Shown piece after piece: positions 352-3,334 of a stretch of DNA of 3,334 nt. Location of the stretch: NCBI RefSeq assembly GCF_003334785.1, contig NZ_QOWV01000051.1. The stretch is one strand, 5' to 3'. The notes below the pieces were generated by a model, which had not been told where the DNA came from, made no database searches, and saw only the letters and a program-made list of their open reading frames with translations. The translations under genes were made by a program, and so were the position numbers. The DNA comes from Escherichia coli (lineage in GTDB: Bacteria; Pseudomonadota; Gammaproteobacteria; Enterobacterales; Enterobacteriaceae). The stretch's first letter is position 1; the number at the start of each line of letters is the position of its first letter.

Positions 352-504
352 CTACTTAGATAACTGAGCCTTTACTGTATCTGCCCCTGCAAGCAGGAAC
401 CCAACAGTTAAGAACCACCCCCAGCCATTGATACCTTTTAGCGCTAGAATTGCTGCGCAAATGATGGCTGCTATAGGGACTATCTGGTACAGAAAATACT
501 TCAT
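352..504 (-). CDS. Hypothetical small hydrophobic protein (50 aa), possible membrane peptide
   Basis: Hand-translated ORF absent from the supplied track: ATG at 504..502 (- strand), stop TAG at 354..352. Product MKYFLYQIVPIAAIICAAILALKGINGWGWFLTVGFLLAGADTVKAQLSK has two hydrophobic segments. Weak SD-like GGGGT 7 nt upstream of the ATG; possible promoter GTGACA(561..556)-17-TCTCAT(538..533). Contains rare ATA and CTA codons. No recognisable family. Confidence 0.3.
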   Translation of the reverse strand: MKYFLYQIVPIAAIICAAILALKGINGWGWFLTVGFLLAGADTVKAQLSK

Positions 505-582: not shown

Positions 583-864
583 TTAGTGATAATCCTCGAG
601 ATCCACGTCAAAGACGTTAGGTTCTTCGAGCTTAAACACTACGCGCCAGTTTCCATTGACCTCTAACGAATACTCTCCTTGACGGTCTCCCTTCAATGGA
701 TGGCAGCGCAATGCCTTTAAATCCATCATATCCTGCAAGTTCGTCGCTGTGCTTAAGGCTGTTAGGATCAGCTTCAGACGTTGAGTAAACTGTTGCGGAA
801 TTCCTGCGTTGTTACCTGTTTCGGCAAACTTACGCAAACCTTTATGCTTGATATTTATGATCAT
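583..864 (-). CDS. higB: HigB-family toxin (plasmid maintenance system killer protein, RelE/ParE superfamily mRNA interferase)
   Basis: 93-aa ORF from the track. Motifs IKHKGL..F...G....GIP, HPLKGDR.G..S..VNGNWR and C-terminal DVD.EDYH match my recollection of the HigB/killer-protein family. ATG at 864..862 with GGTG SD-like sequence 4 nt upstream; stop TAA at 585..583. Confidence 0.85.
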   Translation of the reverse strand: MIINIKHKGLRKFAETGNNAGIPQQFTQRLKLILTALSTATNLQDMMDLKALRCHPLKGDRQGEYSLEVNGNWRVVFKLEEPNVFDVDLEDYH

Positions 865-1001
865 TAATCACCATCCCATATTTGTTTAGATAGAAACATC
901 GCAGTTTATTTTTCCGGTTCATCCGTATTTCCATTGCAAACCCCTTGCTCTATTTGAATAAATGACGTAGGTTTTACTTAACCAAGTCGCATTTTAATCT
1001 G

Positions 1002-1029
1002 TTGACATTGGTTTGATGCGCTGTACAAT
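1002..1029 (+). promoter_or_regulatory. Near-consensus sigma70 promoter, rightward, presumably driving higA with a roughly 170-nt leader
   Basis: Seen in sequence: -35 TTGACA (1002..1007), 16-bp spacer, -10 TACAAT (1024..1029). Predicted start near 1036. Confidence 0.5.
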
Positions 1030-1094
1030 GCCGGGGCCTTGAATTTCACATCAAGTACCCACATCATAAGGAATGATTAGACGCACCAATGTGC

Positions 1095-1123
1095 ATCATA
1101 ATGTCATTCTTTTTTTTAGTCAA
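1095..1123 (-). promoter_or_regulatory. Near-consensus sigma70 promoter, leftward, candidate higB promoter with a roughly 220-nt leader
   Basis: Seen in sequence on the - strand: -35 TTGACT (1123..1118), 17-bp spacer, -10 TATGAT (1100..1095). Predicted start near 1087. No better promoter was found closer to the higB start codon. Confidence 0.45.
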
Positions 1124-1208
1124 CAATGAGTTGCGTTATGCGCAATGCGCAATCTGAAAACGCAATAGGCCTATCTTTTTAAAACTAATATAGGCTTCAG
1201 AGGAAGGT

Positions 1209-1505
1209 ATGATTAATCTTGTCGATCCAGTACATCCAGGGGTTTTTATCCGTGAGATGTTTATGGAACCGTTTGAAATATCAGCCGCGGACCTGTCTGA
1301 AAAACTGCATGTATCACCTTCCACTCTAAGTAGAGTGCTGAATGGAAAAGCTGATTTAAGTGTTGAGATGGCATTAAGGCTTTCTCGAGTTCTTGGTCGC
1401 AGTGCCGAGTCGTGGATAAACATGCAGACTCAATACAGTCTTAACGCGAGCAGGAAGTCACCTAATGTCATTAAGGAATTAGATGAATTGGTTCCTATAT
1501 TTTGA
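1209..1505 (+). CDS. higA: HigA-family antitoxin (XRE-type helix-turn-helix addiction module antidote protein)
   Basis: 98-aa ORF from the track. N-terminal VHPG..IRE.F.EP...S...L...L.VS...LSR.LNGK..LS.EMALRLS...G.S.ESW.N.Q..Y.L matches the HigA-family HTH pattern as I recall it. ATG at 1209 with GAGGAAGG SD immediately upstream; stop TGA 1503..1505 followed by a terminator hairpin. Confidence 0.85.
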   Translation: MINLVDPVHPGVFIREMFMEPFEISAADLSEKLHVSPSTLSRVLNGKADLSVEMALRLSRVLGRSAESWINMQTQYSLNASRKSPNVIKELDELVPIF

Positions 1506-2501: not shown

Positions 2502-2696
2502 TTATGTTCCTGTTTCACTTTCGGTCTCAAAGCGAACCTGGATGCTGTTCTGGAGTTCTTCCGCGAGTTCGTGCAGTCGTTCGCACATGGCCGCCTGTTC
2601 GTCGGCATCCAGAGCATCCAGTTTTTCAAGCAGTGTCAGGCTCTGGCTTTTGATAAATCGCGCCATATTCAGCGCAGTTTGTTGCTGTTTGTTCAC
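2502..2696 (-). CDS. rop: Rop/Rom (RNA one modulator) copy-number control protein
   Basis: 64-aa ORF from the track. MNKQQQTALNMARFIKSQSLTLLEKLDALDADEQAAMCERLHELAEEL aligns with pBR322 Rop (MTKQEKTALNMARFIRSQTLTLLEKLNELDADEQADICESLHDHADEL). Start is GTG at 2696..2694, as in pBR322 rop. Convergent with RNAII, as in pBR322. Confidence 0.85.
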   Translation of the reverse strand: MNKQQQTALNMARFIKSQSLTLLEKLDALDADEQAAMCERLHELAEELQNSIQVRFETESETGT

Positions 2697-3257: not shown

Positions 3258-3334
3258 TGTCCGAAAATGTGTCTCATGGGCACCGTATGCGCCCAAACCG
3301 ATCGCCATTCACTTTCATGCATAGCTATGCAGTG
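3258..3334. repeat. Terminal redundancy: exact 77-bp copy of positions 1..77, indicating a circular molecule of about 3257 bp
   Basis: Checked base by base: 3258..3334 equals 1..77. The window ends at 3334, so the match may simply be truncated there. Confidence 0.9.

What the first reader, a model, noticed from the sequence alone, without database searches (positions are those of the whole stretch)
1131..1165. Tandem TGCGCA palindromes and TTGCG/CGCAA inverted repeats between the leftward promoter and higA
The sequence TTGCGTTATGCGCAATGCGCAATCTGAAAACGCAA contains two tandem copies of the self-complementary hexamer TGCGCA (1139..1144 and 1146..1151) plus a third CGCAA half-site (1161..1165). 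The location is 8 to 40 bp upstream of the -35 of the leftward promoter and inside the leader of the rightward higA transcript. This is where an HTH autoregulator such as HigA would be expected to bind, and it could affect both genes from one site.
Basis: partly seen in the sequence, partly recalled or inferred. Interest (0 to 1): 0.45.

Follow-up and report, generated by a model that had tools for sequence, protein, structure and literature searches.

The report
Conserved 22-bp HigA antitoxin operator
The repeats are real and form a 22-bp palindromic site that travels with one clade of HigA antitoxin genes from gut plasmids to cyanobacteria, so it is very probably where HigA binds, here inside an unusual control region in which toxin and antitoxin genes point away from each other.

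Summary
The window is a complete 3257-bp ColE1-type plasmid. It carries a HigB-like toxin gene (864..583, minus strand) and a HigA gene (1209..1505, plus strand), which are divergent and 344 bp apart.

The functional unit is 1131-1152: TTGCG-tta-TGCGCAA-t-GCGCAA. This is a central 8-bp palindrome with two distal half-sites offset by 7 bp. The third CGCAA (1161-1165) is not conserved.

- **Conservation:** 1131-1152 is the best-conserved 22-bp stretch of the intergenic region in seven divergent relatives.
- **Divergent loci:** the element is present in all 10 divergent higB/higA loci that were found by protein similarity.
- **Canonical operons:** it sits on the core promoter of canonical higB-higA operons whose HigA is 52-57% identical.
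- **Distant HigA:** it is absent from more distant HigA loci.
- **Pattern scans:** 28 of 102 metagenome hits, found by DNA pattern alone, lay next to a HigA gene.
- **Geometry:** the layout matches the crystallographically defined GraA and PaHigA operators, which bind two dimers on opposite DNA faces. The half-site sequence is different.

The HigA-operator reading is therefore supported by comparison, not by experiment. What binding does here is inferred. The site lies 13 bp after a terminator-like U-tract and 7 bp before the -35 of the only good higB-directed promoter. The overall control layout appears undescribed.

The parts
1131..1152 (.). 22-bp tripartite palindromic element, the putative HigA operator: TTGCGTTATGCGCAATGCGCAA. 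The consensus of 27 distinct copies is TTGCG-YN-TTGCGCAA-N-GCGCAA.
   Evidence: Sequence. Best-conserved 22-column window of a 7-locus MAFFT alignment of the intergenic region, mean 0.90. Consensus and information content.
1131..1135 (.). Left distal half-site, TTGCG.
   Evidence: TTGC is invariant or nearly so in 27 distinct elements. It lies 7 bp from the left half of the central palindrome, the same offset as the distal TAAC site of the GraA operator.
1138..1145 (.). Central palindrome, ATGCGCAA (consensus TTGCGCAA).
   Evidence: In L003 it is TTGTGCAA with the right distal site GCACAA. Those changes keep the inverted symmetry rather than a direct repeat.
1148..1152 (.). Right distal half-site, CGCAA.
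   Evidence: It mirrors 1131-1135 about the centre at 1141/1142.
1209..1505 (+). higA: 98-aa HigA-family HTH antitoxin, the presumed binder. It is the only predicted DNA-binding protein on the plasmid.
   Evidence: TIGR02607, 96.3 bits against a cutoff of 47.7. Closest solved relatives are PaHigA (6jpi/7csv, E 1e-14) and GraA (6f8s), about 37% identical over 80 ungapped residues.
583..864 (-). higB: 93-aa HigB-like RelE-fold toxin gene, divergent from higA.
   Evidence: PF05015, E 6e-15, full length. RefSeq annotates it as a RelE/ParE family toxin.
1095..1123 (-). P_L, a leftward sigma-70-like promoter (TTGACT-17-TATGAT) pointing at higB. Its -35 lies 7 nt from the element. Predicted TSS is about 1088.
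   Evidence: A promoter of this kind sits 5-11 bp (types A, B, C and Aeromonas) or 20-22 bp (types E and F) from the element in otherwise unalignable relatives. Its activity has not been measured.
1002..1029 (+). P_R, a strong rightward promoter (TTGACA-16-TACAAT, 11 of 12 matches), face to face with P_L. Predicted TSS is about 1036.
   Evidence: An equivalent promoter lies 125-168 bp left of the element in nearly all divergent relatives, and the scan tool confirms it in L138 and L005.
1068..1117 (+). Terminator-like compound hairpin (stem 1068-1077 with 1103-1112) plus a run of eight U (1110-1117, its first three bases inside the 3' arm of the stem). It ends 13 nt before the element.
   Evidence: RNA fold: -22.3 kcal/mol, z -2.9. 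A hairpin plus T-run occupies the same place, with different sequences, in six of seven subtypes. It is a canonical terminator in L138 by the scan tool. The simple scan did not call it in the window because the loop exceeds 8 nt.

Best explanation
Positions 1131-1152 are the operator of the plasmid's own HigA antitoxin.

**What it is.** It is a 22-bp palindrome built from a central 8-bp palindrome (ATGCGCAA; consensus TTGCGCAA) and two distal half-sites (TTGCG and CGCAA), each offset by 7 bp from the central half-site of the same orientation.

**How it is probably bound (inferred).** By analogy with the solved GraA and PaHigA complexes, two HigA dimers bind cooperatively on opposite faces of the DNA. 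Each dimer places one HTH on one half of the central palindrome and the other HTH about 10.5 bp away on a distal half-site.

**What binding probably does here (inferred, not shown).** In this plasmid the operator is not on a classical operon promoter. It sits 13 bp downstream of the U-tract of a terminator-like hairpin that ends the short transcript from strong P_R. It sits 7 bp upstream of the -35 of P_L, the only good promoter pointing at higB. It sits 56 bp upstream of the higA start codon.
- HigA occupancy is expected to limit read-through from P_R into higA. A roadblock at this distance would hold RNA polymerase with its active site in the U-tract, which would favour termination. The result would be negative autoregulation.
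- HigA occupancy is also expected to hinder P_L, and hence higB, by crowding the -35 and UP-element region.
For: **Shown here**
- The element is the conservation maximum of the 344-bp intergenic region across seven relatives whose flanks are largely unalignable.
- It is present in 10 of 10 divergent higB/higA loci found by protein similarity. These come from Enterobacteriaceae, Erwinia, Aeromonas and Shewanella. A cyanobacterial MAG whose HigA is only 39.5% identical also carries it.
- In canonical higB-higA operons with HigA 52-57% identical, the same 22-bp palindrome lies 10-22 nt before the higB start and is followed directly by a -10-like hexamer. L206 is the clearest case: element, then TATAAT, then 6 nt, then ATG. 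There it overlaps the core promoter.
- It is absent from 8 of 8 HigA loci below 47% identity, which carry other palindromes.
- Starting from the motif alone, 28 of 102 metagenome hits and 2 of 109 genome hits lie next to a HigA gene, and in 27 of the 28 metagenome hits the element lies upstream of that gene. My rough estimate of the chance expectation is below 0.1.
- The recognition helix S-x-S-(T/S)-(L/I/V)-S-R accompanies the motif. GraA and PaHigA, which read TAAC, differ at the residues that contact DNA.
- HigA is the only DNA-binding protein encoded on the plasmid.

**From the literature**
- GraA and PaHigA operators consist of a central palindrome plus two distal half-sites, bound by two dimers on opposite faces. 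Both distal sites are needed for binding (PMC6393540 and PMC6987408). The GraA sequence TTAACGAATAACGTTAAGCATTC has the same 7-bp offsets and the same 22-bp span.

**For the position-based effects**
- The gap from T-run to element is held to 7-15 bp in six subtypes.
- The gap from the P_L -35 to the element is 5-11 bp in four subtypes.
- No convincing sigma-70 promoter lies between the element and higA in the window.
Against: - No binding, footprint, TSS or expression data exist for any member. All promoter and terminator calls are consensus matches.
- Three HigA homologues with the same recognition helix (L120, L124, L130) lack the motif nearby, though all three are in rearranged or orphan contexts.
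- Many of the 27 distinct copies were retrieved with the motif itself, so their consensus is partly circular.
- The element does not overlap the -35 or -10 hexamers of any predicted promoter in the window. A site at -43..-64 of P_L could repress, activate or do nothing.
- The distance to P_L is 20-25 bp in types D, E and F. Type C has no terminator. No single positional rule therefore holds for all subtypes.
- Type B may have its own higA promoter just right of the element (CTGAAA-17-TATAAT in L004). Read-through is therefore not the only possible route to higA expression.
Confidence: 0.72

Rival explanations
1. The element acts as RNA. In the higA leader the palindromes fold into a GC-rich hairpin (UGCGC-AAU-GCGCA, optionally enclosed by 1131-1138 pairing with 1159-1166). 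That hairpin would control stability, processing or translation of higA mRNA. No protein would read the DNA.
For: The MFE fold of 1119-1215 contains exactly these stems. The L003 changes GCGC to GTGC/GCAC preserve pairing. In types C-F the element lies only 15-23 nt from the higA start, so it is probably transcribed.
Against: The fold is not exceptional: z -1.68, and 11 of 200 shuffles fold as well. The outer stem depends on the third CGCAA, which is not conserved. In canonical relatives the -35-proximal part of the element lies upstream of the -10, so that part is not transcribed. The bases themselves, not only the pairing, are conserved from enterobacteria to cyanobacteria at 39% protein identity. 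That pattern is typical of protein recognition.
Confidence: 0.07
2. HigA does bind here, but as an activator or neutral anchor for P_L (a class-I-like position centred near -53), or only as a HigB-HigA complex. The site would then set the toxin:antitoxin ratio rather than repress.
For: The element spans -43 to -64 of P_L and touches neither hexamer. Regulators bound in this zone can activate through the alpha-CTD (general knowledge). In GraTA the toxin changes operator occupancy, acting as a de-repressor (PMC6393540).
Against: In canonical relatives the same element overlaps the core promoter, a repressor position. In L214 it abuts the -35 of a canonical operon promoter, where autorepression is the expected logic. 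The centre at -53.5 is off the usual -61.5/-71.5 activation faces (general knowledge). An antitoxin that activates its toxin has no precedent that I know of.
Confidence: 0.12
3. The site is read by a host or other plasmid factor rather than by HigA. Candidates would be a global regulator, or 7-bp iteron-like repeats used in plasmid maintenance.
For: The 7-bp periodic repeats superficially resemble iterons. L207 carries four tandem units.
Against: The motif follows HigA genes across unrelated hosts and replicons, including chromosomal contigs of GC-rich bacteria and a cyanobacterium. The plasmid replicates by the ColE1 RNAI/RNAII mechanism and needs no iterons. There is no second copy of the motif anywhere else in the plasmid at PWM score of 8 bits or more.
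Confidence: 0.04
4. It is a chance arrangement, or a recent slippage duplication of ATGCGCA, with no function.
For: The two TGCGCA copies are a perfect tandem 7-mer. The hexamer count in the window is not significant on its own.
Against: It is conserved in about 45 loci with 27 distinct sequence variants, across phyla and across two gene arrangements.
Confidence: 0.01

Closest known systems
GraA operator of Pseudomonas putida graTA (HigBA family; PDB 6f8s; PMC6393540)
   Same: Both have a central 8-bp palindrome plus two distal half-sites that repeat the half-palindrome at a 7-bp offset, spanning about 22 bp. The binder is a homologous HigA-type HTH (about 37% identical over 81 ungapped residues). 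In GraA, two dimers bind cooperatively on opposite faces and both distal sites are required for binding.
   Different: The half-site is TAAC/GTTA in GraA and TTGC/GCAA here. The DNA-contacting residues differ: GraA P39, N42 and R46 correspond to S38, S41 and N45 here. The GraA operator lies on the promoter of a toxin-then-antitoxin operon. Here the genes are divergent and the site lies outside the promoter hexamers. Stoichiometry is untested here.
Pseudomonas aeruginosa HigA operator (TTAAC GTTAA central site with two semi-palindromes; PDB 6jpi; PMC6987408)
   Same: It has the same tripartite layout, and this is the closest solved protein relative (E 1e-14). The central palindrome is necessary but not sufficient for binding, and two dimers encircle the DNA.
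   Different: The sequence specificity differs. PaHigA also regulates host genes (mvfR, pel); no second site was found on this plasmid. PaHigBA is a canonical operon.
Canonical type II HigBA autoregulation (for example Rts1 higBA, and the canonical relatives L127, L129, L183 and L206 found here)
   Same: The protein families are the same (PF05015 toxin, TIGR02607 antitoxin). In the canonical relatives found here, the 22-bp element itself is the same.
   Different: In those operons the operator spans the -35 to -10 region and one promoter drives both genes. In the window the toxin and antitoxin have separate, oppositely oriented transcription units.
Face-to-face promoter switches with transcriptional interference (coliphage 186 pR/pL; from my own knowledge, not checked here)
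   Same: Two convergent promoters have start sites about 50-60 bp apart, the stronger one opposing the weaker.
   Different: That switch controls a phage lysis-lysogeny decision through CI and Apl. Here the promoters flank a TA control region, and interference is only inferred.
hok/mok/sok type I toxin-antitoxin control (from my own knowledge)
   Same: The predicted short, strongly promoted RNA is antisense to the 5' part of the toxin mRNA. A leader ORF overlaps the toxin start codon (934..842 in the window).
   Different: The toxin here is a HigB ribonuclease paired with a protein antitoxin, not a small membrane peptide. The antisense overlap is at the extreme 5' end, about 100 nt from the leader ORF's ribosome-binding site. 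No RNA has been detected.

Membership tests
HigA/GraA-type tripartite antitoxin operator | Central 8-10 bp palindrome | tested here: met
   ATGCGCAA at 1138-1145; the consensus TTGCGCAA is a perfect palindrome.
HigA/GraA-type tripartite antitoxin operator | Two distal half-sites repeating the half-palindrome 7 bp to either side, about 22 bp overall | tested here: met
   TTGC at 1131-1134 against (A)TGC at 1138-1141, and GCAA at 1142-1145 against 1149-1152. The GraA sequence TTAACGAATAACGTTAAGCATTC has the same offsets.
HigA/GraA-type tripartite antitoxin operator | Adjacent gene encodes a HigA-family HTH homologous to GraA/PaHigA | tested here: met
   TIGR02607, 96 bits. PDB sequence hits 6jpi, 7csv and 6f8s at E 1e-13 to 1e-14. 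37% identity.
HigA/GraA-type tripartite antitoxin operator | Operator overlaps the core promoter of the TA operon | tested here: not met
   In the window the element lies 7 nt beyond the -35 of P_L and touches no predicted hexamer. The feature is met in canonical relatives such as L206, L127 and L129. No TSS has been mapped.
HigA/GraA-type tripartite antitoxin operator | Half-site sequence TAAC/GTTA | tested here: not met
   The half-sites are TTGC/GCAA. This is a different specificity class, consistent with a different recognition helix.
HigA/GraA-type tripartite antitoxin operator | Cooperative binding of two antitoxin dimers on opposite DNA faces | not testable with these tools
   This needs EMSA, ITC, native MS or a structure.
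Type II HigBA toxin-antitoxin module | HigB-like RelE-fold toxin and HigA HTH antitoxin encoded side by side | tested here: met
   PF05015 over the full length and TIGR02607. The pair co-occurs in all divergent relatives.
Type II HigBA toxin-antitoxin module | Toxin gene directly upstream of the antitoxin gene in one operon | tested here: not met
   The genes are divergent with a 344-bp spacer. This layout is conserved in seven sequence subtypes.
Type II HigBA toxin-antitoxin module | Toxicity of HigB and its neutralisation by HigA | not testable with these tools
   This needs expression experiments.
Type I-like antisense control (hok/mok/sok kind), considered for the surrounding region only | Short cis-antisense RNA overlapping the toxin mRNA, plus a leader ORF coupled to the toxin start | tested here: inconclusive
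   Predicted P_R, terminator and P_L give an overlap of about 53 nt. A leader ORF with a conserved SD, start and stop is present in types A and B only. There are no RNA data and no Rfam match.

The most novel reading that the evidence does not exclude
The divergent higB/higA module is a hybrid regulatory design not described for type II TA systems. One strong promoter (P_R) makes a short RNA, about 80 nt long, ending at a terminator. That RNA is antisense to the 5' end of the higB mRNA and opposes P_L by convergent transcription. Read-through of the same terminator makes the higA mRNA.

The HigA operator sits 7-15 bp past the U-tract. It would work as a roadblock that turns a leaky terminator into an efficient one. 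HigA level would then decide between the short antisense RNA and the long higA message, while the same bound protein crowds the higB promoter.
Probability: 0.22. Interest if true: 0.75.

Novelty: new variant of a known kind. Interest (0 to 1): 0.5.

Why it matters
Type II toxin-antitoxin modules are treated as operons that the antitoxin shuts off at a single promoter. Three things follow from this analysis.

- **A new recognition code.** It defines a HigA operator class (TTGC/GCAA) that is laid out like the solved GraA and PaHigA operators. Structural and specificity-swap work can test it directly.
- **A different wiring.** The same operator is used in a conserved but apparently undescribed arrangement. 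The toxin and antitoxin genes are divergent, the promoters face each other, a terminator sits just before the operator, and some subtypes have a leader ORF on the toxin message. This arrangement is common on very small ColE1-type plasmids of E. coli, Salmonella, Klebsiella and Citrobacter, and it recurs in environmental bacteria.
- **Possible consequences.** If the wiring works as inferred, it would show how a plasmid can regulate toxin and antitoxin separately. It could also provide a compact, portable protein-controlled terminator.

Tried and rejected
- **Rfam.** Both gathering and E-value modes found only RNAI (1581-1681). Nothing credible lies in the intergenic region; the best hit was TarB at 19 bits against a cutoff of 80.
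- **Consensus fold of the P_R RNA.** RNAalifold on six type-A sequences recovered only the 5' hairpin, because MAFFT misaligned the terminator arms. I therefore folded each sequence on its own. I claim no formal covariation statistics.
- **Repeat AAGGAATGATTA (1068) / AAGGTATGATTA (1204) and the 15-codon ORF at 1073.** This is not conserved in L002, so I dropped it as chance.
- **Third CGCAA (1161-1165) as part of the site.** Rejected, because it is not conserved and is out of register.
- **A dedicated sigma-70 higA promoter between the element and higA in the window.** I found none. TAATAT at 1186-1191 has no usable -35, and CTGAAA at 1154-1159 has no -10 at 16-18 bp. A plausible one exists only in L004, a type-B locus.
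- **Minus-strand 'terminator' at 1145..1131 from the scan.** This is the palindrome itself and has no U-run.
- **The 33-bit genome pattern.** It gave mostly chance hits; 107 of 109 were not near HigA.
- **Literature searches.** Searches for TTGCGCAA with antitoxin, for divergently transcribed HigB/HigA, for pEAR5.2, and for opposite-orientation TA on small plasmids found nothing on this operator or layout. The library lacks most subscription journals, so absence is not proof.

Full report
**What the window is.** The 3334 bases are one complete 3257-bp circular ColE1-type plasmid read past its start; 1-77 repeats at 3258-3334. About 40 near-identical copies occur in E. coli, E. fergusonii, Salmonella and Shigella. 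The plasmid carries:
- RNAI at 1581-1681 on the minus strand;
- rop at 2696..2502, as annotated in RefSeq;
- a 93-aa HigB-like toxin gene at 864..583 on the minus strand (PF05015);
- a 98-aa HigA gene at 1209..1505 on the plus strand (TIGR02607, 96 bits).

The two TA genes are divergent and separated by 344 bp. That is not the usual higB-then-higA operon.

**Check of the observation.** The string TTGCGTTATGCGCAATGCGCAATCTGAAAACGCAA is at 1131-1165 exactly as reported. The hexamer count alone is unremarkable: 3 against 1.3 expected. The 15-mer ATGCGCAATGCGCAA with up to 3 mismatches matches only here, four times in overlapping registers, against 0.2 expected and 0 of 200 shuffles. So is a stronger rightward one (TTGACA-16-TACAAT, 1002-1029, 11 of 12).

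**Relatives found by protein or flank similarity.** PLSDB holds small plasmids from Enterobacter, Erwinia (pEAR5.2), Klebsiella, Citrobacter, E. coli and Aeromonas. Their HigA is 50-99% identical, and their toxin gene is likewise divergent, 266-352 bp away. A Shewanella MAG contig has the same layout. The intergenic regions fall into several sequence types that barely align with one another, yet all contain the element:

| Locus | Element |
|---|---|
| window | TTGCGTTATGCGCAATGCGCAA |
| L002 | TTGCGTGTTGCGCAATGCGCAA |
| L003 | TTGCTTGTTGTGCAATGCACAA |
| L004 | TTGCACATAGTGCAATGCGCAT |
| L006 | TTGCGCTTTGCGCAAGGCGCAA |
| L008 | TTGCGTGTTACGCAATGCGCAA |

In a MAFFT alignment of seven whole intergenic regions, the best-conserved 22-column window is 1131-1152 exactly, with mean conservation 0.90. 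The third CGCAA at 1161-1165 is not conserved. In L003 the cores are TGTGCA and TGCACA, which are reverse complements of each other. The unit is therefore an inverted repeat, not a direct one.

**Anatomy.** The consensus of 27 distinct copies is TTGCG-YN-TTGCGCAA-N-GCGCAA. Information is low only at positions 6, 7 and 16 (many copies were retrieved with the motif, so this is partly circular). The element is a 22-bp palindrome about the centre of TTGC|GCAA. It has distal half-sites TTGC (positions 1-4) and GCAA (19-22). Each lies 7 bp from the central half-site of the same orientation.

**Specificity for one HigA clade, in two gene layouts.** I sampled HigA homologues from the large protein collection and read their contigs. 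I also read six more distant HigA loci from plasmids.
- **HigA 52-57% identical, canonical higB-higA operons.** Four carry the same palindrome immediately before higB: L127 TTGCGTGATGCGCAACATGCTA, L128, L129 and L131.
- **Canonical operons found by the metagenome scan.** In L206 the element is followed at once by TATAAT, 6 nt and the higB ATG. In L183, L228 and L127 the pattern is similar. In these operons the element spans the core promoter, so its -35-proximal part cannot be transcribed.
- **Same recognition helix, no motif.** Three homologues (L120, L124, L130) lack the motif. All three are orphan or rearranged.
- **HigA below 47% identity.** Eight loci lack it and show other palindromes at the promoter: GTTTC..GAAAC in L234 and L236, TAACGTTA in L237 and TGTGTATACACA in L235.

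**The reverse test, from motif to gene.**
- A 33-bit pattern scanned over 100,044 representative genomes gave 109 hits, mostly chance. Two lay next to a HigA gene. One of these is a cyanobacterial MAG (L044) whose HigA is 39.5% identical. It has the same divergent layout, a strong rightward promoter, a terminator-like hairpin and then the element, which ends 19 nt before higA.
- A 36-bit pattern over the metagenome collection gave 102 hits. Of these, 28 lie next to a HigA homologue, and in 27 of those 28 the element lies upstream of the higA or higB-higA start. For a random position I estimate an expectation well below 0.1; this is my own rough estimate from gene density.

**Comparison with known operators.**
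- The closest solved proteins are P. aeruginosa HigA (6jpi, 7csv; E 1e-14), E. coli CFT073 HigA (2icp) and P. putida GraA (6f8s). PaHigA and GraA are about 37% identical to the window protein over 80 ungapped residues.
- The papers on GraA and PaHigA describe an operator with a central palindrome (TAACGTTA, or TTAAC GTTAA) and two distal half-sites. Two dimers bind cooperatively on opposite faces of straight B-DNA. Each dimer has one HTH on a central half-site and the other on a distal site. Binding is lost if either distal side is removed (PMC6393540 and PMC6987408).
- The GraA sequence TTAACGAATAACGTTAAGCATTC has TAAC at offsets 0 and 7 and spans 22 bp, the same geometry as here.
- The half-site differs (TTGC against TAAC). 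So do the residues at the GraA DNA-contact positions: P39, N42 and R46 in GraA correspond to S38, S41 and N45 here.
- Across my sample the helix S-x-S-(T/S)-(L/I/V)-S-R goes with the TTGCGC motif.
- I therefore conclude that 1131-1152 is a HigA operator of the GraA/PaHigA architectural kind with a new recognition sequence. Two-dimer binding is inferred, not shown.

**Where the operator sits and what that implies.**
- P_R (predicted TSS about 1036) and P_L (predicted TSS about 1088) face each other, so their transcripts would overlap by about 53 nt.
- The P_R transcript folds into a 5' hairpin and a compound hairpin (1068-1077 paired with 1103-1112). A run of eight U (1110-1117) begins inside the 3' arm of that hairpin. 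The fold is -22.3 kcal/mol, z -2.9.
- A hairpin plus T-run is present at the same place, with unrelated sequences, in six of seven subtypes. The scan tool calls it as a canonical terminator in L138. The gap from T-run to element is 7-15 bp; it is 13 bp in the window.
- P_R lies 125-168 bp left of the element in nearly all divergent loci. P_L has its -35 5-11 bp from the element in types A, B, C and Aeromonas, and 20-22 bp away in types E and F.
- I found no convincing promoter between the element and higA in the window. higA is therefore most simply expressed by read-through from P_R.
- From general knowledge of roadblocked elongation complexes, polymerase stalls with its active site roughly 13-18 bp before the block. 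A protein on 1131-1152 would therefore hold it in the U-tract, which should favour termination. The result would be negative autoregulation of higA.
- The same protein would lie at -43 to -64 of P_L and could hinder it.
- Both effects are inferences from position. Type C lacks the terminator, type D has P_L further away, and L004, a type-B locus, may have its own higA promoter. The rules are therefore not universal.

**Rivals.**
- **RNA hairpin.** This role is weakly supported. The fold has z -1.68, and its outer stem uses the non-conserved third half-site. The promoter location in canonical relatives contradicts it.
- **Host factor or iteron.** The motif follows HigA across unrelated hosts and replicons, which contradicts this.
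- **Chance.** Conservation excludes it.
- **Direction of the effect.** Whether HigA represses or activates P_L, and whether HigB modulates binding as GraT does, cannot be decided here.

**Novelty.** Full-text searches found no description of a TTGCGCAA-type HigA operator or of divergent higB/higA modules. The library is incomplete. I rate the operator itself as a new member of the GraA/PaHigA operator kind. Its deployment in a conserved divergent TA control region is a new variant of type II TA regulation.

Noticed in passing
window 1002-1123 (P_R 1002-1029 +, P_L 1123..1095 -): Two good sigma-70-like promoters face each other inside the higB/higA spacer. Predicted starts are about 1036 and 1088, giving an antisense overlap of about 53 nt. 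The same face-to-face pair recurs at similar distances from the operator in otherwise unalignable subtypes, including environmental ones. This suggests transcriptional interference or antisense control of higB.
   Followed up: partly
window 1034-1117 (+): The predicted RNA from P_R is about 80 nt long. It has a conserved 5' hairpin (CCUUGA..UCAAG) and ends in a compound hairpin with a run of eight U. There is no Rfam family for it. Hairpin plus T-run equivalents with different sequences occur in six of seven subtypes, and the one in L138 is a canonical terminator.
   Followed up: partly
window 934..842 (-): A 30-codon leader ORF lies on the higB strand with a good SD (AAGGGG). It ends 23 nt inside higB in another frame. 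Its start, SD and stop positions are conserved in L002, L003 and L126 (28-30 codons, peptide sequence not conserved). An equivalent ORF in type B stops at +1/+4 of higB. It looks like translational coupling in the manner of mok/hok.
   Followed up: partly
window 1169-1195: The palindrome GCCTAT-N15-ATAGGC lies just before the higA SD. Type B has a different one (TTTTGTAT-N6-ATACAAAA) at the same place. In the MFE fold the upstream arm region pairs with the higA SD. Its function is unknown.
   Followed up: no
window 583-1505 and relatives L002-L010, L044, L126, L138, L149, L187: The divergent orientation of a HigB-like toxin and HigA, with a 266-358 bp spacer, is conserved in at least seven sequence subtypes. 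These range from enterobacterial ColE1 plasmids to Aeromonas, Shewanella, a cyanobacterial MAG and soil or water metagenomes.
   Followed up: yes
window 504..352 (-): A 50-aa hydrophobic ORF (MKYFLYQIVPIAAIICAAILALKGINGWGWFLTVGFLLAGADTVKAQLSK) lies downstream of higB on the same strand. It has no NCBIfam match and is not annotated in RefSeq.
   Followed up: no
L207 (metagenome contig), about 142 bp upstream of its HigA start: The element is expanded to four tandem 7-mers (TTGCTTG TTGCGCA ATGCGCA ATGCGCA A), which suggests the unit can grow by slippage.
   Followed up: no
L234, L236, L237, L235 (more distant canonical higBA loci on plasmids): Other HigA clades carry other promoter palindromes: repeated GTTTC..GAAAC (L234, L236), TAACGTTA as in GraA (L237) and TGTGTATACACA (L235). 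Each goes with a different recognition helix. This is raw material for a HigA recognition code.
   Followed up: partly
L127, L129, L206 (canonical relatives): The -10-like hexamer that follows the operator lies only 6 nt from the higB ATG. Those higB mRNAs would therefore be leaderless or nearly so.
   Followed up: no
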